DNA of 52,892 bases from Promethearchaeota archaeon (GCA_048939015.1 JBHLPW010000036.1:1-52892), one strand, 5' to 3'. Positions 27,021 through 37,426 are shown, numbered from the stretch's first letter. Notes: generated by a model from the letters alone, not told the origin. Made by a program: numbers and translations.

Positions 27021-28331
27021 TTACAAGTCAAAATTAATTTTACCATAAGTTCCTCCACCACCTGGAGTATATTCAATCTCATTATTTCTAAGTGCTTTTA
27101 TTACAGTTCCAATAGTCTGATCATACTTTTCAATTACTTGAATTGGGATATCTATTAAGATCTCAAATTCCGTTCCAAGTTCCTGAATTATTTTATTATA
27201 TTCATTAGACACAGTTTTACTTGTTGCACTTTTAATACCTTTTACTGACCGGATAATATCTACTAAAGGTATAGCATTGATATAGAGAGGTCTATGATCT
27301 GGGTGCTTAGGTTCTGAATATGTAGAAATTTTTTCAATTCTTTCACTAACTCCTAGTTTAACCTTAAAATTTTTATTGAATTCTTCTTTACAAGCCGGAC
27401 AATTAACCTTATTTTTGGAAACTTGTTCTAAATAATTTAATCTTGAAGATATAGGATCATTTGAATAGTAGATAACAAAATTATCTGTTATTGAGTATTG
27501 GTTAAAAATTTCACTTACTTTTTTTTTAGCATTCTTGAATAATATCCTTCTTCTGCATTTATTACAAAACATATTGTAATATTTCCCGAGCTTAGGATGT
27601 AGACCTACATTAAGATTGATCCTTCTTCCATTTTTTCTTTCTAATGCTAATACAATTTCATCGAACGATGGATTATCAGTATCAAATCTATTAAACTCTC
27701 GACCTAAAGAACGTGGATCTTGTGAGTGAGCATCACTATTGCTTAGAAATGATACATTTTCTAGGGCTTTCAAGCGATCTGCCAAATCTGTATTAGCAGA
27801 AAGACCTAACTCAATAAAACTTACTTTTTTAGTTGCTCCTTCATAACAATCCTCAAGAGATTCAAATTTTCCTTGTCGAAAGATGGCTTTAAAAGGAGTA
27901 AATGCATGAGCAGGACCAATTATAGCTCCAGAATCTGAAATAATATCGACTAAGGCAGGGGGTGACAAATTCACTCTTGGTCTTCCGCCCCACTCACCCA
28001 AGATGTTTTTAGAATATGGTTTTAATTTATTCTGAATTTCTATAACAGAACTAAAATCAGGAAATAAAACCACATGATGTATACTTTCAATATCTTCAAT
28101 TTCTGTCTGTAGGATAAAACAAATATCTTTGTATAAAAATGAACCATCATTCTGTTTTTCTAAATTGTTTTTAATATATTTAAACCATTCTGGTTGTAAA
28201 ATATCACCTGTTCCAAGAAGGTTTAAACCTTTCTTCTTACAAGTCTCCAGCATAGTATCCAAATTCAACGATTTTGATACTGCAATTGAATGAGGACTAT
28301 GAATATGGAGATCAGCGTTAAATATATCCAT
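27021..28331 (-). CDS. endoQ: Endonuclease Q family (PHP domain plus Zn finger) DNA repair protein
   Basis: DLHIHS, GTGD, GPAHAFTP, ELGLSA, NSDAHS, LGREFN, GKYY..C..C, CPAC, GVSER and PGGGGTYG motifs. Confidence 0.85.
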   Translation of the reverse strand: MDIFNADLHIHSPHSIAVSKSLNLDTMLETCKKKGLNLLGTGDILQPEWFKYIKNNLEKQNDGSFLYKDICFILQTEIEDIESIHHVVLFPDFSSVIEIQNKLKPYSKNILGEWGGRPRVNLSPPALVDIISDSGAIIGPAHAFTPFKAIFRQGKFESLEDCYEGATKKVSFIELGLSANTDLADRLKALENVSFLSNSDAHSQDPRSLGREFNRFDTDNPSFDEIVLALERKNGRRINLNVGLHPKLGKYYNMFCNKCRRRILFKNAKKKVSEIFNQYSITDNFVIYYSNDPISSRLNYLEQVSKNKVNCPACKEEFNKNFKVKLGVSERIEKISTYSEPKHPDHRPLYINAIPLVDIIRSVKGIKSATSKTVSNEYNKIIQELGTEFEILIDIPIQVIEKYDQTIGTVIKALRNNEIEYTPGGGGTYGKINFDL

Positions 28332-28390
28332 CAGTTATTAAAAATCATACTTTAATAAAAACATTTTAATAACCTATTAATTATATGTTT

Positions 28391-29440
28391 TTAATTTAGG
28401 ATAAGCATTTTATCTTTTATTTGATCAGTCAATAAAATACGATAGTATTCTAAAGAATTTCTAAAATTGACTTTTTCTAATTTTCCTTCTATTAAAACTT
28501 TCTCTCCTTCTTTAGCTTGTTCACAAAACCGCCCTCTAAATGAGTTAATTTCATTTATATCGCTTGAGTTAATATTATTTAATTTCAAAGTACTTTCGAG
28601 AATTTTTTGAGGTTTTATTTTGTATGAACATGGTGTAAAAATTGAATCTCTTGAATCTAAAATTTCAGCTTTGAGTTTAATTCTCCCAAGATTTTTATAT
28701 TGGTAATCATAAAAATTACCTTTCCAATCAATAGGACTTTTTATGTATCTTATAAAGAAATCAAGTTCCATAAATTTGCCTTGATGTAACTTTCTTCGCT
28801 CACTTCTTAAAAAATCTTCAAAGGGAATATCAGAACCACCAACTCTCCAATCATAATGAAATTTATATTCTTCATTATTATAATTCCGAATTTTATCAGA
28901 ACTCTTAAAGATCTGGCCCATTTTTTCATGGAATTTCAGAGAAGTTTCTGTACCATATATTATTAGATCAATATCAGAATCTTCAGTATTCAATCCTACC
29001 ATTGTTGATCCTGTAATCCCTATTGAATCTTCAGAAATATCTCCTTGCGAAATTAATAATTCACATAATTCTCTTGACTGAATTTCAATACTAGTTAAAT
29101 ATTTTCTTTCTAGTAGCTTTTTAAAAAATTTTCTTGGAGTATGAATTTCGTTTATTTCTTTCTTACGCACTCCTTGAACCTCTAAATCGAGTTCTTTCGA
29201 AAAGAAAAGATACTTTGGGTACCTTTCTTTCAAGAGGGCATATCTATTGTCTAATTGGTAGATTTTTTTATATTTGGTACCATTCTTTATCCGGTCTCCT
29301 TCTAATGAAGGAAAAAATCTCAAAAAACATATGATATAATCATCTGGATGGAGAAGACCTTTTACATCAAAAAATAAATTAGTGTTTTTAGTTTCTATAT
29401 AATCTCCTTCAATTGCCTGCAAATTTTTCATGAACTTCAC
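28391..29440 (-). CDS. Archaeal predicted nucleotidyltransferase (COG1665-like)
   Basis: FDVKGLLHP, FLRF.P, GITGS...SDIDLIIYG and SFRGRFCEQAKEGE motifs. Confidence 0.8.
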   Translation of the reverse strand: MKFMKNLQAIEGDYIETKNTNLFFDVKGLLHPDDYIICFLRFFPSLEGDRIKNGTKYKKIYQLDNRYALLKERYPKYLFFSKELDLEVQGVRKKEINEIHTPRKFFKKLLERKYLTSIEIQSRELCELLISQGDISEDSIGITGSTMVGLNTEDSDIDLIIYGTETSLKFHEKMGQIFKSSDKIRNYNNEEYKFHYDWRVGGSDIPFEDFLRSERRKLHQGKFMELDFFIRYIKSPIDWKGNFYDYQYKNLGRIKLKAEILDSRDSIFTPCSYKIKPQKILESTLKLNNINSSDINEINSFRGRFCEQAKEGEKVLIEGKLEKVNFRNSLEYYRILLTDQIKDKMLILN

Positions 29441-29451
29441 AATTTTAATAA

Positions 29452-30609
29452 TTAGTAGCCTGAAGGAGTTTTTGATTTAATATTAGAGGGAGTCTTCGTC
29501 TTGATTGACGGTGATTTCTTTTTAATACGTCTCAATTCTCTTTCAAAAGCCTTTTTCTCATTTAGAAATCGCTGTTTATCTTTTTCTAACTTTTCTCTTT
29601 CTCTTCGAATAGTATTTTTTTCACTTTCTAAATTTAATTTTTGTTTTTCTAATTGCCTATATTCATTATTTAATCGTCTATATTTTTCTTCAAAAGTAGG
29701 AATTTTTCTATTTAAGGATTGGAACTTACTTTCTGCTGCCGAGGTTTTCCTTTCTAATTCTTTAAGTCTTGCTTCTTGTTGTGTTCTTCTTCTTTTTAAA
29801 TCACTTGCATCTTTTTCAACTTTATCTCTATACTTTTTTAGATCTACTTTTTTCTTATCAATTTCACGAGTTCTTAAATCAATATCTTGTTTTTTATAAC
29901 GAGTTTTATCCCTCTCTTCTTTTAATTTTTTCTTTTCTTCATTTATTCGATTTCTTTCATCAGTAATCTCTCTCTGTAAGTTATGAATTTCCTTGTTTAG
30001 ATTATCTCGTTCATTGGTTTTATCTTTAATTTCATTTCTTAAATCCATCAACTTAGATTCTAAATCATTAATAGTTCTTTCTAAGGCACTTTCTCTTCTT
30101 TCCATCCCAGGTATTTTGGTTTTAATTTCCTTTATTCTTTTTTCCGTTCTTTCTTTCTCCCATTCTAAATTCTTTTTTTGATCTGAAATATCCTCTCTTA
30201 ATCTATCTAAGTTCTCTTGAAATTTTTCTAATTGTGCATTTTTTTGATCTAATTCCTCATTCTTTCTTCTGATTTTTTCTCTAAATTGTTGTTCTTTGGT
30301 TGCTAACTCAATATTTCGCTGGGTGATTTGATTTTTTGTTTTTTCTAACTCATTCTGTAAATTATCTCGTTGTTCAAGGAGATATTTAATCTTAAGTTCC
30401 TTTTCTTTTCTTATTTTTTCAAGATCCTCAATATTTTCCTTATAATTTTCAATTTGATTAACAACTTTTTCCCATTCACTCTTTTCTTTGTCTAATTTAA
30501 TCCTTTCCTTCTTTAATTTTTTAAGTAACTTCTTATCAGGGATGAGGACTGATTCTTCATCTGGTGTTTTTTCTCGAATTTGATACTTAGGAATTGGTTC
30601 GTCGTTCAT
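29452..30609 (-). CDS. Long coiled-coil protein with KTPS-repeat tail
   Basis: About 330 aa of K/E/R/L heptad-rich sequence with no ATPase motif; C-terminus IKTKTPSNIKSKTPSGY. Confidence 0.8.
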   Translation of the reverse strand: MNDEPIPKYQIREKTPDEESVLIPDKKLLKKLKKERIKLDKEKSEWEKVVNQIENYKENIEDLEKIRKEKELKIKYLLEQRDNLQNELEKTKNQITQRNIELATKEQQFREKIRRKNEELDQKNAQLEKFQENLDRLREDISDQKKNLEWEKERTEKRIKEIKTKIPGMERRESALERTINDLESKLMDLRNEIKDKTNERDNLNKEIHNLQREITDERNRINEEKKKLKEERDKTRYKKQDIDLRTREIDKKKVDLKKYRDKVEKDASDLKRRRTQQEARLKELERKTSAAESKFQSLNRKIPTFEEKYRRLNNEYRQLEKQKLNLESEKNTIRREREKLEKDKQRFLNEKKAFERELRRIKKKSPSIKTKTPSNIKSKTPSGY

Positions 30610-30808
30610 AATAAAGGTATTTTTAATATATTCTATTAATAAAGTCATATTAATACTGACTCTAAAGTGTTTGCCAATCACGATTATAATTTCAAAAATA
30701 GAATTTTTCTTGATTCTATTTATATATCCTAATTTCTTTTATTCTCATATAATTATAGCAAAAAAATAAGTGATTAATAGTAAATATATAATCATTAGGG
30801 TTTGTACT

Positions 30809-31255
30809 ATGGGTTTTGATAACGAATTTAATGAAGAATTTGATGAACAAGAATTTGACGAAGATTTAGAAGAATTAGATGAAGATTTAGAAGAAGTTGA
30901 TGAAGAATTTGAAGAAATTAAAGAAGATGATATAGAAGAGCCATTTGAAAATATTCCAGAGGAAGAAGTTGAGACTAAAACTCCGACTAAAAGGAGTGTG
31001 GGTGGTGGTAAGAAAATCTCTGTTTTTTTTATGTCTACTATAGGTCCAGGCGAGAAAAAGCAAAAATTAACTGTTAATGATGGGAATCTTGTTGGTGATA
31101 TTAAAGAAACCGTAGCAAACTTATTTGGTTTAGATCCTGATGACTTTCATTTATCTTGCGGTGGAATAACAATGGATGAAACTAATCCTTTAAACAGTTA
31201 TTCCATTTCTGATGGAGATGATATACTTTTAATTCCAGCTAGTATTGCGGGTTAA
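30809..31255 (+). CDS. Ubiquitin-like protein A (long acidic N-tail, C-terminal ...IPASIAG)
   Basis: Beta-grasp pattern VGDIKE...LFGL...LSCGG..MDE...LNSYSISDGDDILLIP; close paralog of 33117-33449. Confidence 0.85.
   Translation: MGFDNEFNEEFDEQEFDEDLEELDEDLEEVDEEFEEIKEDDIEEPFENIPEEEVETKTPTKRSVGGGKKISVFFMSTIGPGEKKQKLTVNDGNLVGDIKETVANLFGLDPDDFHLSCGGITMDETNPLNSYSISDGDDILLIPASIAG
30857..30919 (+). repeat. Three imperfect 21-bp tandem repeats encoding DEDLEEL/DEDLEEV/DEEFEEI
   Basis: GACGAAGATTTAGAAGAATTA, GATGAAGATTTAGAAGAAGTT and GATGAAGAATTTGAAGAAATT. Confidence 0.75.
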
Positions 31256-31302: not shown

Positions 31303-32097
31303 TTAATTTTTCTCTTTTCGTGAGGGTATAAGAGCAATTTCATCATCATCATCAATATTATATTCTTTAATTTGTAAAGTTTCATCCAACAATATCCCAC
31401 CAGATGACAAGAGAAAATCCTGATTTTCATAATCAAATAATAATGCAATCTTATCCTTAATGATACCTACAAACTCACCAGTATCAATAATTATAATTTT
31501 TGTTTTCTCACCAGGTTCTAAAAGAGATCTAACATATACACGAATTTGGTCTTCCAATTCAACAGAGTTTATAGGTGCTATGTAAGGGATCATTTCATCA
31601 ACAATATCTCTACTCTTTATCATATTGTCTATTAAATCTTTTCTCTCATTTGGATCATAGTATAACATTTCTCGGATAAATGAAATCTTATCCATTTTAG
31701 ATAAATCCAGAGAGTTAATCTTATTTAATTCTTCTTGGCTTAAAATTGTAAAAATATATTTATCAATGATTGGCATGTCCTTATAGGATTTATCTGACTC
31801 AGCGTAGTCATCCAAAGAAGGCATAGCATCAATGTAATTCTCAAGAATAGTGGAAGATGTTCTTTTAATTGATTTTGGTTTTGTGATATATTTTTTTTCT
31901 TTTAGTGTTTTAATTGAACTACTTTTAGATTGTATAACAGTATATACTGTACTAGTTGATAAGACAGCAACACTACCTATAGTGAGTGCAAGAAAAAAAA
32001 GCGTATTTTCTATATGGTATAGGAAAAATACTACATAGAGCAAAATACAAACAATATATAATGCTAAAACACTTAATATTCGATAATTTTTTTTCAT
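31303..32097 (-). CDS. Two-TM membrane protein with C-terminal ubiquitin-like domain lacking a terminal Gly
   Basis: Two N-terminal hydrophobic helices. The C-terminal IRVYVRSLLEPGEK...VGIIKDKIALLF...FLLSSGGILLDE...EYNIDDDDEIALIPSRKEKN aligns with the two free Ubls. Confidence 0.8.
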   Translation of the reverse strand: MKKNYRILSVLALYIVCILLYVVFFLYHIENTLFFLALTIGSVAVLSTSTVYTVIQSKSSSIKTLKEKKYITKPKSIKRTSSTILENYIDAMPSLDDYAESDKSYKDMPIIDKYIFTILSQEELNKINSLDLSKMDKISFIREMLYYDPNERKDLIDNMIKSRDIVDEMIPYIAPINSVELEDQIRVYVRSLLEPGEKTKIIIIDTGEFVGIIKDKIALLFDYENQDFLLSSGGILLDETLQIKEYNIDDDDEIALIPSRKEKN

Positions 32098-32175: not shown

Positions 32176-32853
32176 TCAATCATTTTCATCTTGAATCAAT
32201 TTTCTTATATTAGAATATTTTTTTTGGTTTAACTTGTATAAATTTCTATTTTTTTCTTTTTCAATATTTATTAATTTTAGACTTATTAAAACATTCATAT
32301 ATTTTTTAATAGTTGTATGATTCTTTTTTAAACCATTTGCTATCTCGGTGATTTTTAATGCTTCATTTTCTCTTATCATAAAACTGATTATATTTTGAAC
32401 AATATTCTTTTTTAAATAATAAAAAAATGGGTCATATTTTGGATTTGAATCGAATTTGAAGAACATTTTATGATTATTGATTTGTTTTGACCTGATAAAT
32501 TGAAATTTCTCTAAGCATGATAAATGCCATAAAGCTTGATTACTACCAATTCTTAATACTTTCATTATCTCATTAATATTTGAGGGATTTTTTTTTATAA
32601 AATTGAAGATCTCATTTCTTTTCGGATGCTCAATAATATTGTTTTTCATCAGTTTTGTTCCAGGGATTATAACTCTCTTTTTTAATAAATCTTTCAAAAT
32701 TAACTCTATTCTATTCTCATTTATGTTTGGATTATATCGTACCCTATTGTTTATAAAAGAGATAATATCTCTAATGGAAAAGAAATTTTTCTTTGTTAAA
32801 TACTCTCTTACTAATTCAAGAACAACAGATTCTACATCATCCAGAGAATTCAT
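32176..32853 (-). CDS. Multi-winged-helix (ArsR-like) transcription regulator
   Basis: RNEIFNFIKKNP...NQALWHLSCLEKFQFI and ITEIANGLKKNHTTIKKYMNVL...RNLYKLN. Confidence 0.8.
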   Translation of the reverse strand: MNSLDDVESVVLELVREYLTKKNFFSIRDIISFINNRVRYNPNINENRIELILKDLLKKRVIIPGTKLMKNNIIEHPKRNEIFNFIKKNPSNINEIMKVLRIGSNQALWHLSCLEKFQFIRSKQINNHKMFFKFDSNPKYDPFFYYLKKNIVQNIISFMIRENEALKITEIANGLKKNHTTIKKYMNVLISLKLINIEKEKNRNLYKLNQKKYSNIRKLIQDEND

Positions 32854-33116
32854 AAACCTTTACTTTTATCCCATTGATTTTTCTGATTTTTATAATAGTA
32901 TGTTCTCTCTAAAACAACTTTTTATAATTTATATATATTAATAGGGTTTCATTCAATTTATAATATAATTTCTTGAGGATTCAATTATTCAGCATTTAGT
33001 TTTTAATAAGAAATTAAAAACTGCAAAATCATTCCATAGGATTTTATTATATCTTTTTAACGCCATTTTATTAAGATTAATAAAATTAAAAATTAAAAAA
33101 AATGGAAGTGATATGA

Positions 33117-33449
33117 ATGAGTTTTGAGGATTTTGATGAAGATCTAGGAGTAAATGAACCTGTCAAATCTAAAACTCCAGCAAGTAAAGTTCCATCTGGA
33201 GGGAAGAAATTGACTTTATATTTCATGTCAACTATTGGTCCAGGTGAAAAAAAGGAGAAATTAACTGTGAATGATAGGAATAAAGTAAGAGATATCAAAC
33301 AAACTTTAGGAAATTTATATGGGCTTGATCCTAATGATTTCCACATATCTTGTGGAGGGGTTACTATGGACGAAAACAGTGATTTAGGAGATTATGATGT
33401 AAATGATGGCGATGACATACTATTAATCCCAGCGAGTACAGCTGGTTAG
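33117..33449 (+). CDS. Ubiquitin-like protein B (C-terminal ...IPASTAG), first gene of the E1-E2-JAMM-RING cluster
   Basis: VRDIKQ...LGDYDVNDGDDILLIP matches the ubiquitin-fold pattern; adjacent to E1. Confidence 0.88.
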   Translation: MSFEDFDEDLGVNEPVKSKTPASKVPSGGKKLTLYFMSTIGPGEKKEKLTVNDRNKVRDIKQTLGNLYGLDPNDFHISCGGVTMDENSDLGDYDVNDGDDILLIPASTAG

Positions 33450-33532: not shown

Positions 33533-34780
33533 ATGGTGATTATGTTGGATAAGGATTCAGATTTTTTCGCAAAGGAACTATCGGTAGAAGAGAGAGACCT
33601 ATACGATCGTCAATTTCGTTTAGAGGGGTGGTCGCAGAAATTAGTAAAGAATTCAAGAGTATTAATAGTTGGTGTGGGAGGTTTGGGGTGTGAAATTGCT
33701 AAAAATTTGGCGATGCTTGGTGTAGGTCACCTTGATCTAGTTGATTTAGACATTATTGAACACTCTAATCTAAATCGTCAAGTTCTTTTTACGGGTGCAA
33801 GGATAGGAGAATCCAAAGCAGTTAGTGCTGCTCGAAAGTTAAAGGAAATAAATCCAAATATTATCGTTAAAGGATATCATACTTCTTTAGAACGATTAAA
33901 TCCTACACTATATCAATCAGCAGATGTTGTTATTGGTGGTCTTGATTCAATGAATGCACGTTTGAATTTAAACGCACAATGTATAAGATTTAGAAAACCA
34001 TTAGTAGATGGAGGAGTATCCGGTTATCATGGACATGTATACACTGTATTCCCCTATAAAAACGCCTGTTATGAATGTAATCCTTTACCTGTAGCTGAAA
34101 CAGATGAAATGGCTGCTTGTACAGTTGTTGGAATCCCTCGAAAAAGAATCCATTGTGTTTTTAAAGGTGATATGGCATTTAGGGAAAAATTTGATAGAGA
34201 TCCAAATCCAAAAGATGTAAATGATATAAAATTCATTCAAAATTTTGCAAATGAATTAGTAAACAAGCATGATTTCTTACCTGAATATACTGAAGATGAT
34301 ATCGTAAAAATCATTGATAGACACGATCCTGGCATAATAACTATAAATGCAGTTATTTCTGCATTACAATCACATGAAGCGATCAAAATTATTCATTGGA
34401 ATAGAAAACATAAAGGATTAGGCGAGCCTATAAGAACTTATGTTATCTATAATGCTATCACAATGAAATTCTATCATATCGAAAAAAAAAGGAATCCAGA
34501 ATGTTCTCAATGTGGTAAAAACGTGAGAAGAGTATCGATAAAGTTAAGATCAGATTCACCTTGCATGAATATCATAAAAATTTTAGCAAAGAACGGATTT
34601 AAGTTTGATTCCGAATCTGAGCCGATTTTAACTTTACAGGATTTTAATGATATTATCATGGTTGATTTGGAAAAAAATCCAATTGAAAATGGTTTAAGAA
34701 ATTACGAATTAATGACAGCTGCTGGATTCCTAGGTGGAGAAATTTATATAACTTTAAAATTAAAACAAAATGTGAAATGA
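33533..34780 (+). CDS. Ubiquitin-activating enzyme E1 (ThiF/MoeB core with Uba2/Uba3-like catalytic-Cys insert and C-terminal extension)
   Basis: YDRQ, VGVGGLG, DLD.IE.SNLNRQ, Zn ligands CYEC and CSQC, and candidate catalytic AACT. Confidence 0.92.
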   Translation: MVIMLDKDSDFFAKELSVEERDLYDRQFRLEGWSQKLVKNSRVLIVGVGGLGCEIAKNLAMLGVGHLDLVDLDIIEHSNLNRQVLFTGARIGESKAVSAARKLKEINPNIIVKGYHTSLERLNPTLYQSADVVIGGLDSMNARLNLNAQCIRFRKPLVDGGVSGYHGHVYTVFPYKNACYECNPLPVAETDEMAACTVVGIPRKRIHCVFKGDMAFREKFDRDPNPKDVNDIKFIQNFANELVNKHDFLPEYTEDDIVKIIDRHDPGIITINAVISALQSHEAIKIIHWNRKHKGLGEPIRTYVIYNAITMKFYHIEKKRNPECSQCGKNVRRVSIKLRSDSPCMNIIKILAKNGFKFDSESEPILTLQDFNDIIMVDLEKNPIENGLRNYELMTAAGFLGGEIYITLKLKQNVK

Positions 34781-34861
34781 AAACATATTTAAAAATAATT
34801 AAAAAAATTAAAAGAAAAATTTGGATAATAAATTAATAATAAAAAAATAAGGGTTGAGATT

Positions 34862-35389
34862 ATGAGTATAAGAAGTAGTCGTATTTCCCAAGATTTTGCG
34901 GGATTAAAAAAAATGTTGAAGGATGGTAATATAGTTCAGTTAAAACCATTTAATCCAAAAAGGAAGAGTATTGATCATTTAGCAATTTCATTTAAAGGAC
35001 CAAAAGGTACAGTTTATTCAGGGGGTCTTTTTAGGTTAGAATTGAAGTTCCCTGCACAATATCCGAAACAGCCACCTTTTGTTAGATTGCATACACCAAT
35101 ATGGCATCCTAATTTTTGGCCAAAGCCGTCTGAATATAAAGGACAAAGAAATATTTGTCTAGCATTAGTAGATCCCTCATTGGTAGGTAAAAAAGGGGGC
35201 TGGAGTCCATCAAAAACAGCTGTAACAGTTGTTCAAGCAATAATTGCTATGTTAAATACACGTGGTAAATATGTTAATCCTACTGATGTCTTTAATAAAA
35301 AGGCTGCCGTAGAAATGATGAAGAATCAAAAGTTCTTTGAGAAAAAAGTAAAAAATCTTGTTAAAAAGTATGCAAATAAAAAGTGGTGA
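34862..35389 (+). CDS. Ubiquitin-conjugating enzyme E2
   Basis: GPKGTVYSGG.F.L...FP..YP..PP, IWHPN, catalytic ICL, WSP and FN..AA motifs. Confidence 0.93.
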   Translation: MSIRSSRISQDFAGLKKMLKDGNIVQLKPFNPKRKSIDHLAISFKGPKGTVYSGGLFRLELKFPAQYPKQPPFVRLHTPIWHPNFWPKPSEYKGQRNICLALVDPSLVGKKGGWSPSKTAVTVVQAIIAMLNTRGKYVNPTDVFNKKAAVEMMKNQKFFEKKVKNLVKKYANKKW

Positions 35390-36216
35390 GATTTTCTATG
35401 GAAGATAAAGCATCAACGAACAATTCAATCAAAGATACAATTAAGAAGAAGATAAAAGAAAAAATAAAACAAGAATTGTTAGATGAAATATGTGAGGAAC
35501 TCCAATTGGAAGAAGATGAATTAACTGAAGAAATTACTTCAATGCTTACAAAAAAGTCCCCAAATAATAAACCAATAATAAAACTTACAAAGATACCTGC
35601 AGCAGAAAAAGTAGAAAAGAAAGAAATTGAAATTCCTAAAGAAGAGGAAATTCAAAAGGAGCTCTATATATCCGTAAAACCTATCCTTAAAATTGCTAGT
35701 CATGCTCTTAAGTATGCAAATTCAAAGATTCCACGAGAAAAATGGGTGGAAGTTATAGGACTTTTAGCAGGTAAAATTGATAAAAAAAATGGGGTATTAA
35801 ATATTGAAGATGCTTATCCAATGGGGCATGGCACAGCAGTTTATGCTGAGATTAAAGATTATAAAAACTTTGCACGAGCTTTCCAAGATATTAAAAAGCA
35901 AAAATTGTTTATCTGTGGATGGTATCATTCACACCCTAGCTATGGATGTTTTTTAAGTGCGGAAGATATGGGTACTCAAGCGAGATATCAAAAATTTTGG
36001 GATAAATCTGTTGCTCTTGTGATAGATCCATATCAAATAGATGGAAAATCCACAGGATTTGAAATATATACTGCAGATCTTATTACTAAAACATGGTATC
36101 CTTTAGTATATGGAATTAAAGGATCATTAGATATTAAGATGCTCCCGGAAATTTTAAAATTCATGAATCCTATTATTGAAGGGAAGGCTGCATACTTAGA
36201 GTATGATGGAGATTAA
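35383..36216 (+). CDS. JAMM/MPN+ metalloisopeptidase (Rpn11/CSN5-like)
   Basis: EVIGLL.G, GWYHSHPSYGCFLSAED (intact HxHx7Sx2D) and ALVIDP motifs. Confidence 0.93.
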   Translation: MVRFSMEDKASTNNSIKDTIKKKIKEKIKQELLDEICEELQLEEDELTEEITSMLTKKSPNNKPIIKLTKIPAAEKVEKKEIEIPKEEEIQKELYISVKPILKIASHALKYANSKIPREKWVEVIGLLAGKIDKKNGVLNIEDAYPMGHGTAVYAEIKDYKNFARAFQDIKKQKLFICGWYHSHPSYGCFLSAEDMGTQARYQKFWDKSVALVIDPYQIDGKSTGFEIYTADLITKTWYPLVYGIKGSLDIKMLPEILKFMNPIIEGKAAYLEYDGD

Positions 36217-36244
36217 AATAATAGAAAAATGGTGATATTAAATT

Positions 36245-37426
36245 ATGCCTAAATTTAAGGCTATTGCAATTACGCTGGCGATATTTTCATTTATAGGCAT
36301 AATACATGGTGCTATTTTAAATTCTATTAATGTGTTTTTAAGTTGGTTATTAATTGGAGTATGGATAATTTTTTCTATCAATATTGTAAAAAATATAAAA
36401 CAATATCGTGAATATCGGAGTCCCCACAATACTGCCTTTTTTATTATCGGTCCCGTTTTCGTGGGTATATTTTATTCAATTTGGGGTAATTTTACGGGTT
36501 TATTGGGAGAAAATCTTCTGGTTAGTTCAGATTTGTACTTAAGTTGGTGGAGTATTATATTTGGATTCCCTTATGTATTATTTGGTTCTGTATCTTTATA
36601 CCGTTGTTTTAAGAAATATAGTGTAATCTATTTCGGGACAAAATCAGTTAATGCCAGGAAGTTTGGATATTTTTTAGGATTCTCAATAGTTTTTTTTATT
36701 GTTGTCTATTGGTTAAGTTTCTATTCACTGATTGACTTTTATGAGTCTCTTTTGATACCTATTCATTTTTTAATTGATCTTAATCTTTTATTATTGCTAA
36801 TAGGAACTATGTTAATAATTATTATACATGGATTTTTTGGAACTCGGTCCCAATTACCTCGATTGTCTCGAAATTACATAACAACTCGTACAAGAAGATT
36901 AAATGATTTAGTTTCTCCTAATCGACAAACAGAGAGTAGTCGTAGCACAATAAGATCATCTCCAACTCCATCAACTAGAACAGTCACTCGGACTTCAAGA
37001 TCAGTTTCCCATTCCTCAAGGACAACCCCTTCTGGACATTTACGTTCACAAAATACTAGAGTTAAAACATCTACTCGAACTACAAGTAGTCGTAAAACGG
37101 GAAAACCAATTAGAAGTGATCAAAGAACCATAAAACAAATTAATTTTAAATTATATAGACCAAAAGCGGCAAATTTATCAATAGAAGATTTTAAATGTAT
37201 ATTTTGTTTTAGATTACCTGAAAGTCCCAAAGATAATGGTAGAGGAATAATTTTATGTCCTAAGTGTAGATATCCTGCTCATGCAGATGAATTTAAAGAT
37301 TGGCTTAAAACTTCTCATCTATGTTCTAGATGTAATGCGCCAATTCCATCAAGTTATAAAAAAAATCCTAAAATAATAAGTGTAAAGAATTATATTGTCA
37401 TTTATAAAGGTTTATTAAAGAAATGA
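36245..37426 (+). CDS. Polytopic membrane protein with C-terminal variant RING finger (putative membrane E3 ligase)
   Basis: About six hydrophobic helices, an S/T/R-rich linker, then CIFC-x16-CPKCRYPAHADEFKDWL-x5-CSRC. Confidence 0.8.
   Translation: MPKFKAIAITLAIFSFIGIIHGAILNSINVFLSWLLIGVWIIFSINIVKNIKQYREYRSPHNTAFFIIGPVFVGIFYSIWGNFTGLLGENLLVSSDLYLSWWSIIFGFPYVLFGSVSLYRCFKKYSVIYFGTKSVNARKFGYFLGFSIVFFIVVYWLSFYSLIDFYESLLIPIHFLIDLNLLLLLIGTMLIIIIHGFFGTRSQLPRLSRNYITTRTRRLNDLVSPNRQTESSRSTIRSSPTPSTRTVTRTSRSVSHSSRTTPSGHLRSQNTRVKTSTRTTSSRKTGKPIRSDQRTIKQINFKLYRPKAANLSIEDFKCIFCFRLPESPKDNGRGIILCPKCRYPAHADEFKDWLKTSHLCSRCNAPIPSSYKKNPKIISVKNYIVIYKGLLKK

What the first reader, a model, noticed from the sequence alone, without database searches (positions are those of the whole stretch)
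31303..32097. Membrane-tethered, non-conjugatable Ubl paralog
Seen: two TM helices, a helical linker, and a C-terminal domain colinear with the free Ubls (PGEK, VG.IK, F.LS.GG..[LM]DE, Y.I.D.D.I.LIP) but ending SRKEKN with no Gly. Inference: an adaptor or decoy that recruits E1/E2/JAMM or a Cdc48/proteasome-type ATPase to the membrane, like eukaryotic integral UBL-domain proteins. It appears to derive from the modifier itself.
Basis: partly seen in the sequence, partly recalled or inferred. Interest (0 to 1): 0.7.

Follow-up and report, generated by a model that had tools for sequence, protein, structure and literature searches.

The report
Membrane ubiquitin-like tether for a regulator
In a few genera of Loki-type Asgard archaea, a small membrane protein inside the ubiquitin-like gene cluster carries a ubiquitin-fold domain that cannot be attached to targets, joined to an undescribed domain that nearly always travels with a DNA-binding-type partner, so it most likely ties control of the tagging genes to the state of the tagging system.

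Summary
ORF 31303-32097(-) encodes 264 aa: two N-terminal TM helices, a basic linker, a helical middle domain and a C-terminal beta-grasp domain. That domain is 43% and 32% identical to the two neighbouring free Ubls. It ends IPSRKEKN where the free Ubls end IPAS[TI]AG. Among 117 orthologs, six have a Gly in the last six residues, at varying positions. Charge distribution puts the Ubl in the cytoplasm.

The middle domain ("module X"), together with TM2, is a cassette also found as the cytoplasmic tail of many Lokiarchaeial surface proteins. This cassette is almost always encoded beside a paralogous ~220-aa tandem-wHTH protein. That held for 3/3 cases in this genome, 38/46 in 20 other genomes, and all 26 TM-Ubl loci tested. 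The two partners co-diverge (Mantel r 0.85), share the same genus distribution, and are fused into one ORF twice.

My best reading is a membrane tether (anti-regulator) for the adjacent wHTH, which sits divergent to the Ubl-E1-E2-JAMM-RING operon. The dead-end Ubl would be its cytoplasmic input or degron. Binding and DNA recognition are inferred, not shown. Earlier follow-ups in this scan reached the same reading on orthologs in other genomes. I found no publication describing it.

The parts
31303..32097 (-). TM-Ubl gene, 264 aa (P0001)
   Evidence: ORF listing and translation. 404 homologs, nearly all 259-269 aa.
32017..32079 (-). TM1 (aa 7-27), signal-anchor-like helix after the MKKNYR start
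   Evidence: Hydropathy and charge. AF2 helix 3-26. Column conservation 0.58.
31933..32001 (-). TM2 (aa 33-55) with motif TIGSVAVLSTSTIYT. It is the most conserved segment of the protein.
   Evidence: Conservation 0.81 in 117 orthologs. The same IG[SA]V..S...Y motif occurs in the single TM helix before module X in surface proteins.
31846..31932 (-). Basic juxtamembrane linker (aa 56-84)
   Evidence: Mean net charge +5.9. Low pLDDT.
31609..31845 (-). Module X (aa 85-163): amphipathic N-part plus a three-helix-bundle core. Absent from Pfam.
   Evidence: phmmer hits at the C-terminal tails of unrelated surface proteins. AF2 alone gives mean pLDDT 78.6, core 86-94. No Pfam or PDB match.
31324..31548 (-). 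Ubiquitin-like beta-grasp domain (aa 184-258)
31306..31323 (-). Conserved basic tail SRKEKN in place of the modifier's ASTAG. No conjugation Gly.
32176..32853 (-). Tandem-wHTH protein (225 aa), 78 bp upstream on the same strand. Proposed cognate partner.
   Evidence: Pfam HTH_5 26.4 bits and HrcA_DNA-bdg 27 bits, both above their cut-offs. 32-34% identical to the wHTH genes beside the two other module-X genes of this genome. PDB profile hits are DNA-binding wHTH proteins only.
32854..33116 (.). Divergent intergenic region between the wHTH/TM-Ubl genes and the UblB-E1-E2-JAMM-RING genes, with conserved non-coding blocks
   Evidence: In an alignment of 25 distinct orthologous spacers (26 loci), blocks at about 32903-32918, 32928-32975 and 33015-33075 are at least 85% conserved. 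No operator was identified.
33117..33449 (+). UblB, free modifier ending IPASTAG
30809..31255 (+). UblA, free modifier with a long acidic N-terminal tail, ending IPASIAG. It is convergent with TM-Ubl (47-nt gap).
33533..37426 (+). E1 (ThiF), E2 (UQ_con), JAMM and a polytopic RING-like membrane protein
   Evidence: Pfam for E1, E2 and JAMM. The RING-like end has only weak hits, such as zf_UBZ E 0.0022. Synteny.

Best explanation
TM-Ubl is the membrane-anchored partner (tether or anti-regulator) of the tandem-wHTH protein encoded just upstream of it.

Topology (predicted): TM1 and TM2 form an N-in/C-in hairpin.

Cassette (shown by homology): TM2, the basic linker and module X are the same cassette that forms the cytoplasmic tail of many Lokiarchaeial type-I surface proteins.

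Binding (inferred from genomics): module X binds the cognate wHTH and holds it at the membrane.

Input (inferred): in the ordinary receptors the input is the ectodomain. TM-Ubl has no ectodomain, so its input would be the C-terminal Ubl domain, which cannot be conjugated. The Ubl would act as a built-in pseudo-modifier. It could be a handle or decoy for Ubl-recognising machinery (JAMM, E2/RING, a Ubl receptor, an AAA unfoldase). It could also be a non-removable acceptor for Ubl chains, in the manner of ubiquitin-fusion degradation. Either way, the tether's occupancy or turnover would report the state of the Ubl system.

Output (inferred from position only): released or retained wHTH would control the divergent promoters of its own operon and of UblB-E1-E2-JAMM-RING. 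This would give feedback control of the tagging system.
For: 1. Cassette homology. phmmer hits to P0001 aa ~31-165 lie at the extreme C-termini of large proteins with extracellular-type domains: beta-helix/NosD, FG-GAP, PQQ/WD40, LamG, GH9+CBM3, SBP_bac_5. Their single TM helix carries the same IG[SA]V..S...Y motif as TM2.

2. Gene pairing. In this genome all three module-X genes lie next to paralogous ~220-aa wHTH genes on the same strand. Only about 10 wHTH paralogs exist in the 4.86-Mb genome. In 40 loci from 20 other genomes, 38 of 46 module-X ORFs have such a gene within 600 bp on the same strand. All 26 TM-Ubl loci tested have it.

3. Co-divergence. The Mantel correlation between module-X distances and partner-wHTH distances is r = 0.854. 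No permutation reached it, 0 of 2000 overall and 0 of 2000 when permuting within genomes.

4. Co-distribution. Both families are essentially confined to one family of the phylum. Both were not found in genus g3 (0/4). Both are expanded together in g2 and in G273.

5. Fusions. Two G273 ORFs (L088 1698-4697, L089 191-3307) read ectodomain-TM-module X-wHTH in one chain.

6. Co-inheritance. wHTH and TM-Ubl are gained or lost together. G138 has the Ubl-E1-E2-JAMM-RING operon without either.

7. The wHTH looks DNA-binding. It is divergent to the Ubl operon across a spacer with conserved blocks.

8. The Ubl domain is under its own constraint. Column conservation is 0.75. Against the free Ubls, 20 positions are conserved and identical and 18 are conserved but different, including a conserved SRK tail.

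9. About a fifth of module-X receptors carry a RING-like zinc finger between the TM helix and module X. The best single-sequence hit is RBBP6 RING, E 0.0014. Profile hits are p44, Mdm2, TRIM25 and RNF4 at E 0.0015-0.2. This is a second, weak tie of the receptor family to Ubl chemistry.
Against: No physical evidence exists that module X binds the wHTH. I could not run a complex prediction.

Adjacency, co-divergence and fusion show functional coupling and co-duplication. They do not show the direction of control.

Module X is a generic three-helix bundle with no informative structural match (best Z 5.3).

DNA binding by the wHTH and its target sites are not shown. I found no k-mer conserved both upstream of UblA and in the wHTH-UblB spacer.

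The role assigned to the Ubl domain is inference by elimination.

In genus g6 the TM-Ubl/wHTH pair sits by UblB and a small RING, with E1/E2/JAMM not adjacent.
Confidence: 0.55

Rival explanations
1. Pure membrane adaptor or scaffold. The Ubl domain recruits E2, the polytopic RING protein, JAMM or a Cdc48/PAN-type ATPase to the membrane, like Herp/Usa1, TMUB1, MUB or UBX proteins. The wHTH would merely regulate its expression.
For: The protein carries a cytoplasmic, non-conjugatable, strongly conserved Ubl on a membrane hairpin. The gene lies in the cluster with a polytopic RING-like protein. TM2 is the most conserved segment (0.81), which fits a specific intramembrane partner.
Against: This reading does not explain why module X and its TM helix are shared with dozens of unrelated surface proteins. 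Each of those has its own wHTH partner and most have no Ubl. It also does not explain the module X-wHTH fusions. The RING-TM operon exists without TM-Ubl in G138. No enzyme interaction could be tested.
Confidence: 0.2
2. Constitutive 'pre-ubiquitinated cargo' mimic. The in-line Ubl on a surface-protein-type tail recruits Ubl readers, such as ESCRT-I/II-like proteins, to the membrane or to complexes of cassette-bearing surface proteins.
For: The cassette is shared with surface-protein tails. The genome encodes an EAP30/Vps22-family protein elsewhere (C10:6966-7622). Ub-binding by Asgard ESCRT components is published (PMC9192718).
Against: There is no linkage to ESCRT genes in the window. A UEV Pfam search of the genome found nothing, although the control genomes were also silent, so that search is uninformative. 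The strict pairing with a wHTH is left unexplained.
Confidence: 0.1
3. A latent modifier. The protein is processed to release a conjugatable Ubl.
For: Some free Ubls in the lineage are made as precursors with 1-7 residues after the Gly. A JAMM protease is encoded nearby.
Against: No Gly is conserved anywhere in the tail. In 111 of 117 orthologs the last six residues have none. At the position aligned to the modifier's terminal Gly the tail has no conserved residue.
Confidence: 0.03
4. The Ubl is a passive structural or solubility domain with no signalling role, and the protein acts only through TM2 and module X.
For: The function of module X does not need a Ubl in the other receptors.
Against: The Ubl is more conserved than module X (0.75 against 0.71). 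It has 18 class-specific conserved positions and a conserved basic tail. It is retained in all four genera that carry the gene.
Confidence: 0.07

Closest known systems
SdpI/SdpR of Bacillus subtilis (PMC2910880, read)
   Same: The regulator gene is followed by a membrane-protein gene in one operon. The membrane protein sequesters the wHTH (ArsR-type) autorepressor on the cytoplasmic face. This is the same gene order as wHTH then TM-Ubl.
   Different: There is no sequence or fold relation. SdpI is polytopic and senses an external toxin. Here the membrane part is a hairpin, the binding domain is a soluble three-helix module and the input would be a cytoplasmic Ubl. Sequestration is not shown here.
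Membrane anti-sigma / ECF sigma pairs, especially RsgI/SigI of cellulolytic clostridia (own knowledge)
   Same: These are families of paralogous pairs: a single-pass membrane protein with a variable carbohydrate-binding or enzyme ectodomain plus a cognate cytoplasmic transcription factor. The pairs are duplicated and co-diverge.
   Different: Archaea have no sigma factors. The partner here is a tandem wHTH. The cytoplasmic domain lies C-terminal to the TM helix and is unrelated to anti-sigma domains.
Herp (HERPUD1)/Usa1 and TMUB1, UBL-domain membrane proteins of Hrd1/gp78 ERAD ligases (own knowledge)
   Same: A non-conjugated UBL domain is held on the cytosolic face by a TM hairpin. It is encoded or acts together with a polytopic RING ligase.
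   Different: Domain order is reversed. There is no detectable sequence relation beyond the generic ubiquitin fold. Herp and Usa1 have no transcription-factor partner. Binding to the RING-TM protein is untested.
MUB/UBL3 membrane-anchored ubiquitin-fold proteins (own knowledge)
   Same: A ubiquitin-fold domain that is not conjugated is tethered to the membrane, where MUBs recruit E2s.
   Different: MUBs are anchored by C-terminal prenylation at a CAAX box. This protein ends SRKEKN and is anchored by N-terminal TM helices.
Membrane-tethered transcription factors released through the ubiquitin system, and feedback regulators of it: Spt23/Mga2, NRF1 (NFE2L1), Rpn4 (own knowledge; NRF1 review PMC12285602 seen only as a search hit)
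   Same: The logic is the same: a regulator held at a membrane, or turned over, in a way that depends on ubiquitin/proteasome capacity.
   Different: These are eukaryotic, unrelated in sequence, and use real ubiquitination. Here the link to Ubl chemistry is an in-line dead-end Ubl, and the mechanism is hypothetical.
Archaeal Ub-E1-E2-RING-Rpn11 operons (Caldiarchaeum subterraneum: PMC5654768, PMC6043591; Asgard: PMC9192718)
   Same: The surrounding cluster is of this kind. The best structural match of the Ubl domain is Caldiarchaeum ubiquitin.
   Different: In PMC9192718 and bioRxiv 2023.07.25.550441, term searches (transmembrane, membrane-anchored, ubiquitin-like) found no mention of a membrane-anchored Ubl or a paired wHTH. 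The two Caldiarchaeum papers were seen only as search hits. The modifiers here end Ala-Gly and the RING protein is polytopic.

Membership tests
Ubiquitin-like beta-grasp domains (Pfam ubiquitin PF00240 clan) | Beta-grasp fold | tested here: met
   AF2 block-mean pLDDT is about 74-90 over the domain. Foldseek gives probability 1.0 and TMt 0.77-0.90 to ubiquitin, ISG15, SUMO and Hub1. VIA-align gives Z 12.8, rmsd 2.1, 77 residues aligned.
Ubiquitin-like beta-grasp domains (Pfam ubiquitin PF00240 clan) | Score above Pfam's curated cut-off | tested here: not met
   22.3 bits against 25.4 (E 1.1e-4). The two free Ubls of the cluster are also just under it, at 24.3 and 23.9 bits. Homology to those Ubls is significant by BLASTP.
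Conjugatable Ubl modifiers (type-1 Ubls) | Exposed or exposable C-terminal Gly | tested here: not met
   The tail is SRKEKN. 111 of 117 orthologs have no Gly in the last six residues, and no Gly position is conserved. Free Ubls of the lineage end AG.
Conjugatable Ubl modifiers (type-1 Ubls) | Activation by the cognate E1 | not testable with these tools
   This needs an adenylation or thioester assay with the E1 encoded at 33533-34780.
Herp/Usa1-type ERAD scaffolds | N-terminal UBL, C-terminal TM hairpin, binding to a Hrd1-type ligase | tested here: not met
   The order is reversed: TM hairpin N-terminal, Ubl C-terminal. No Herp/Usa1-specific match appeared among the structural hits listed, which is inconclusive for homology. 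Ligase binding was not tested.
MUB/UBL3 | C-terminal CAAX prenylation box | tested here: not met
   There is no Cys in the tail, and orthologs end [KR][EK][KR]N.
Membrane tether + cognate transcription factor pairs (SdpI/SdpR-like, anti-sigma-like logic) | Membrane protein and regulator encoded as a conserved adjacent pair | tested here: met
   3/3 in this genome, 38/46 in other genomes, 26/26 TM-Ubl loci. Always the same strand.
Membrane tether + cognate transcription factor pairs (SdpI/SdpR-like, anti-sigma-like logic) | Partner is a DNA-binding regulator | tested here: inconclusive
   HTH_5 and HrcA_DNA-bdg score above their Pfam cut-offs. PDB profile hits are only DNA-binding wHTH proteins: 5duk at E 1.5e-5, then TFE, Lrs14, IclR and MarR more weakly. 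No DNA-binding assay was done and no operator was found.
Membrane tether + cognate transcription factor pairs (SdpI/SdpR-like, anti-sigma-like logic) | Direct binding of the regulator by the cytoplasmic domain of the membrane protein | not testable with these tools
   Only indirect support is available: co-divergence r 0.854, co-distribution and two natural fusions. No complex prediction was available.
UBA/CUE/VSL-type helical ubiquitin- or Vps4-binding domains (considered for module X) | Significant sequence or structural match | tested here: inconclusive
   The best sequence hit is the Vta1 VSL region at E 0.15. Nothing was found in Pfam. Foldseek's best hit has E 0.87 (protein A). The best VIA Z is 5.3. 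Such scores are common for a three-helix bundle.

The most novel reading that the evidence does not exclude
Lokiarchaeial cells would run a family of membrane-to-DNA signalling pairs: a surface receptor with a module-X tail plus a cognate tandem-wHTH factor, present as up to 15-17 module-X copies per genome. This family would be wired to the ubiquitin-like system. Some receptors carry a RING-like finger next to the factor-binding module. One ectodomain-less member carries an in-line, non-removable Ubl and autoregulates the Ubl-E1-E2-JAMM-RING operon. That would be a prokaryotic counterpart of ubiquitin-dependent release of membrane-tethered transcription factors (Spt23/Mga2, NRF1) and of Rpn4-type feedback.
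Probability: 0.25. Interest if true: 0.85.

Novelty: new variant of a known kind. Interest (0 to 1): 0.66.

Why it matters
Asgard ubiquitin-like systems are studied as models for the origin of eukaryotic ubiquitin signalling. How they are regulated and what they target is largely unknown.

This gene offers a concrete, testable handle in three parts:
- a small membrane protein whose soluble part can be expressed;
- a defined candidate partner, the adjacent wHTH;
- a defined candidate DNA target, the 263-bp divergent spacer.

If the tether model holds, it would show that a dead-end ubiquitin-fold domain was recruited as a regulatory input in an archaeon. It would also define an undescribed receptor/transcription-factor family.

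One caveat limits its weight. The gene is confined to four genera of one Lokiarchaeial family, so it is a derived innovation, not an ancestral Asgard trait.

Tried and rejected
1. Module X identity. Pfam on 13 members, a PDB sequence profile, Foldseek, VIA-align wide and the ESM Atlas gave nothing usable. The Vta1 VSL hit (E 0.15) is not significant.

2. wHTH as an ESCRT-II-like winged-helix protein. The EAP30 family matches only another locus (C10:6966-7622). The wHTH profile hits only DNA-binding wHTH proteins. I rejected this idea as unsupported.

3. UEV search of the genome. There was no hit, but the control genomes were silent too, so the result is uninformative.

4. Operator search.
- The spacer is AT-rich with many chance palindromes.
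- The conserved block ACTKCAAAATCATTCCA has no second copy in the window beyond chance.
- No 8-10-mer is conserved both upstream of UblA and in the wHTH-UblB spacer.

5. The bacterial promoter/terminator scan is not applicable to an archaeon and was at chance level.

6. UFM1 affinity of these single-Gly Ubls. No Ufm1 family appeared among the Pfam hits and none among the top structural matches. Whether they are the 'Asgard Ufm1 homologues' of PMC12962969 was not resolved.

7. Literature. Five full-text searches and five papers read did not turn up a description of a membrane-anchored Asgard Ubl, of module X or of its wHTH pairing.

8. Cultured carrier. All 70 carrier loci in the species-representative genome set are uncultured MAGs.

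Full report
**Observation.**
The window is AT-rich (27-33% GC). At 30.8-37.4 kb it holds a ubiquitin-like cluster. The genes, in order, are:
- UblA, on the + strand;
- the gene in question, 31303-32097, on the - strand;
- a 225-aa tandem-wHTH gene, on the - strand;
- then, on the + strand, UblB, E1 (ThiF, E 1.5e-61), E2 (UQ_con, 8e-25), JAMM (2e-15) and a polytopic protein with a RING-like end.

The ORF encodes 264 aa. Hydropathy windows above 1.6 are confined to aa 4-52, which fits two helices at about aa 7-27 and 33-55. The C-terminal 76 residues align without gaps to UblA (43% identity, E 7e-19) and UblB (32%, E 3e-13).

AF2 with a 54-sequence alignment gave mean pLDDT 68.7, with block means of about 74-90 over the Ubl domain. 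This part matches ubiquitin-fold structures. The best Foldseek hit is Caldiarchaeum ubiquitin 6fno_D, TMt 0.77, with others up to 0.90. VIA-align gives Z 12.8, rmsd 2.1, 77 residues, to the ISG15 C-terminal domain.

The protein ends IPSRKEKN.

**Family and tail.**
A search of 5.8 billion clustered proteins gave 404 homologs, nearly all 259-269 aa. Where named, the sources call them Promethearchaeota or Lokiarchaeota MAGs. Tails are IPSRK[EK][KR]N-like. Of 117 full-length orthologs, 111 have no Gly in the last six residues and only two end in Gly.

Free Ubls from several families of the phylum all end LLIPAS[TI]AG. Some carry 1-7 further residues, as precursors would. So Ala-Gly is the lineage's conjugation end, and the TM-Ubl family has lost it. 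Other N-terminally extended Ubl fusions keep it: L036 8619-9401 ends IPSRVAG and L035 8583-9506 ends IPSSTAG.

**Topology.**
Mean net charge is +3.4 before TM1, -0.4 in the five-residue loop and +5.9 after TM2. The positive-inside rule then gives N-in/C-in. If TM1 were instead a cleaved signal peptide, TM2 would still leave the C-terminal part in the cytoplasm.

**Origin of the Ubl domain.**
In a tree of 82 Ubl domains, with the tails removed, the TM-Ubl domains form one clade (SH-aLRT 98). This clade sits on a long stem. The free Ubls of distant families are nearly identical to one another.

Full-length TM-Ubl was found only in four genera of one family: g1, g4, g6 and g7. Elsewhere among 301 genomes of the phylum only free Ubls matched. 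A late duplication of the modifier followed by rapid change is the simplest reading. The tree is unrooted and has only 76 columns.

The domain is not decaying. Its column conservation is 0.75. Against the free Ubls, 20 positions are conserved and identical and 18 are conserved but different. The differing positions include the SRK tail.

**The middle domain is a module of its own.**
An exhaustive phmmer search showed that aa ~77-163, often with TM2, also occur at the extreme C-terminus of large unrelated proteins. Their N-terminal parts are extracellular-type domains: beta-helix/NosD, FG-GAP, PQQ/WD40, LamG, SBBP, GH9+CBM3 and SBP_bac_5.

The single TM helix before the module carries the same IG[SA]V..S...Y motif as TM2. 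TM2 is the most conserved part of TM-Ubl, at 0.81. TM-Ubl is therefore an ectodomain-less copy of a surface-protein tail cassette with a Ubl added.

The module ("module X") has no Pfam family and no significant PDB sequence match. Folded alone, it is a three-helix bundle with core pLDDT 86-94. It has no informative structural neighbour: Foldseek's best E is 0.87 and the best VIA Z is 5.3. It is confined to the same archaeal family: f1 56/68 genomes, one genome in f2, and none elsewhere in the genomes searched.

**The decisive pattern: a partner gene.**
This genome has three clear module-X genes. Each lies beside a ~220-aa tandem-wHTH gene on the same strand. The three wHTH proteins are collinear paralogs, 32-34% identical. 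Only about ten members of the wHTH family exist in the 4.86-Mb genome. A fourth, weaker module-X protein (C110) is also followed by one. More distant paralogs sit next to other membrane proteins.

I fetched 40 loci around module-X hits in 20 other genomes. Of 46 module-X ORFs, 38 have such a wHTH gene within 600 bp, always on the same strand. Several of the exceptions are cut by contig ends. All 26 TM-Ubl loci tested have the wHTH next to the gene.

Four further lines of evidence couple the two families:
- Distances among module-X domains and among their partner wHTHs correlate (Mantel r 0.854). No permutation reached this value, 0 of 2000 overall and 0 of 2000 when partners were shuffled only within genomes.
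- The two families share their genus distribution and expand together.
- In G273, two ORFs fuse ectodomain, TM, module X and a complete wHTH in one chain.
- G138 has the Ubl-E1-E2-JAMM-RING operon with neither wHTH nor TM-Ubl, so the two are one inserted unit.

**What it most likely does.**
Three things are shown:
- a cytoplasmic, non-conjugatable Ubl on a membrane hairpin;
- a cassette shared with surface receptors;
- strict genomic coupling of that cassette to a wHTH family whose matches are DNA-binding regulators.

Three things are inferred:
- Module X binds its cognate wHTH at the membrane.
- TM-Ubl lacks an ectodomain, so it takes its input from the Ubl domain. The Ubl could be a decoy or handle for Ubl-recognising machinery. 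It could also be a non-removable chain acceptor that sets the tether's lifetime.
- The wHTH acts on the 263-bp divergent spacer, which holds three blocks conserved across genera.

The outcome would be feedback control of the Ubl system. SdpI/SdpR shows that a membrane protein can sequester a wHTH autorepressor encoded just upstream of it (PMC2910880). Anti-sigma/sigma families show the same paralogous-pair logic.

About a fifth of the receptors have a RING-like finger between the TM helix and module X. The single-sequence match to RBBP6 RING has E 0.0014. Profile hits to p44, Mdm2, TRIM25 and RNF4 lie at E 0.0015-0.2. This weakly suggests that Ubl chemistry is part of signalling in the wider family.

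**Limits.**
I could not predict or test the complex. I found no operator. In genus g6 the pair is not next to E1/E2/JAMM.

**Novelty.**
Five full-text searches and five papers read did not turn up a description of this protein, of module X or of the pairing. Those read include Hatano 2022, the UEV-Vps23 preprint and the 2026 structural surveys.

After I had reached the tether reading, I looked at the scan's earlier notes. Several follow-ups on orthologs in other genomes had come to the same reading. I do not count them as evidence.

All 70 carrier loci in the representative genome set are uncultured MAGs, so tests will have to be heterologous.

Noticed in passing
L088 1698-4697(-) and L089 191-3307(-) (genome G273): Two ORFs of 1000 and 1039 aa fuse a signal/ectodomain, a TM helix, module X and a full tandem-wHTH in one chain. 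These are natural membrane-tethered versions of the pair.
   Followed up: yes
L007 2481-4655(+) (own genome C16); also P0158, P0159, L050, L058, L062, L084: About a fifth of module-X receptors carry an eight-ligand Cys/His finger (C-x2-H-x12-C-x2-C-x4-C-x2-C-x12-C-x2-C) between the TM helix and module X. It matches RING domains weakly (RBBP6 E 0.0014; p44, Mdm2, TRIM25 and RNF4 by profile).
   Followed up: partly
window 30809-31255 and 33117-33449; G000:C46:104729-104956(-): The genome has three free Ubls ending Ala-Gly, not Gly-Gly. Across the phylum the end LLIPAS[TI]AG is nearly invariant, and some copies have 1-7 extra residues, as precursors would.
   Followed up: partly
L035 8583-9506(+) (G204); L036 8619-9401(-) (G138): Proteins of 307 and 260 aa have unrelated N-terminal parts and a C-terminal Ubl that keeps the conjugatable ..AG end. 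They may be Ubl-fusion precursors or self-tagging proteins.
   Followed up: no
window 27021-30681(-): A PHP-like 436-aa gene, a nucleotidyltransferase-like 349-aa gene and a 409-aa Lys/Glu-rich coiled-coil gene are syntenic with the Ubl cluster across genera g1 and g4. The coiled-coil gene is also there in g7 and g6.
   Followed up: partly
window 32903-32918, 32928-32975, 33015-33075: Three non-coding blocks in the divergent spacer are at least 85% conserved across the 25 distinct orthologous spacers aligned (26 loci). Two contain a similar TCAT.C.A core followed by a TATA-like run. Their function is unknown.
   Followed up: partly
own genome: C10:2396-3352 and C10:45638-46372 (+), C88:26059-26808(+), C112:14186-15520(-), C110:7892-8815(+): More distant paralogs of the wHTH also sit directly beside predicted membrane proteins with 2-7 TM helices. 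The membrane-partner habit may extend beyond module X.
   Followed up: partly
window 36245-37426(+): The cluster's RING-like protein is polytopic, with a long Ser/Thr/Arg-rich linker. Pfam gives only weak hits to its zinc-finger end (zf_UBZ E 0.0022, zf-RING_16 E 0.13).
   Followed up: no
L118 (DATKTW010000117.1): One carrier contig is deposited as a Nanopelagicaceae bacterium MAG. It is probably a mis-binned Lokiarchaeial contig.
   Followed up: no
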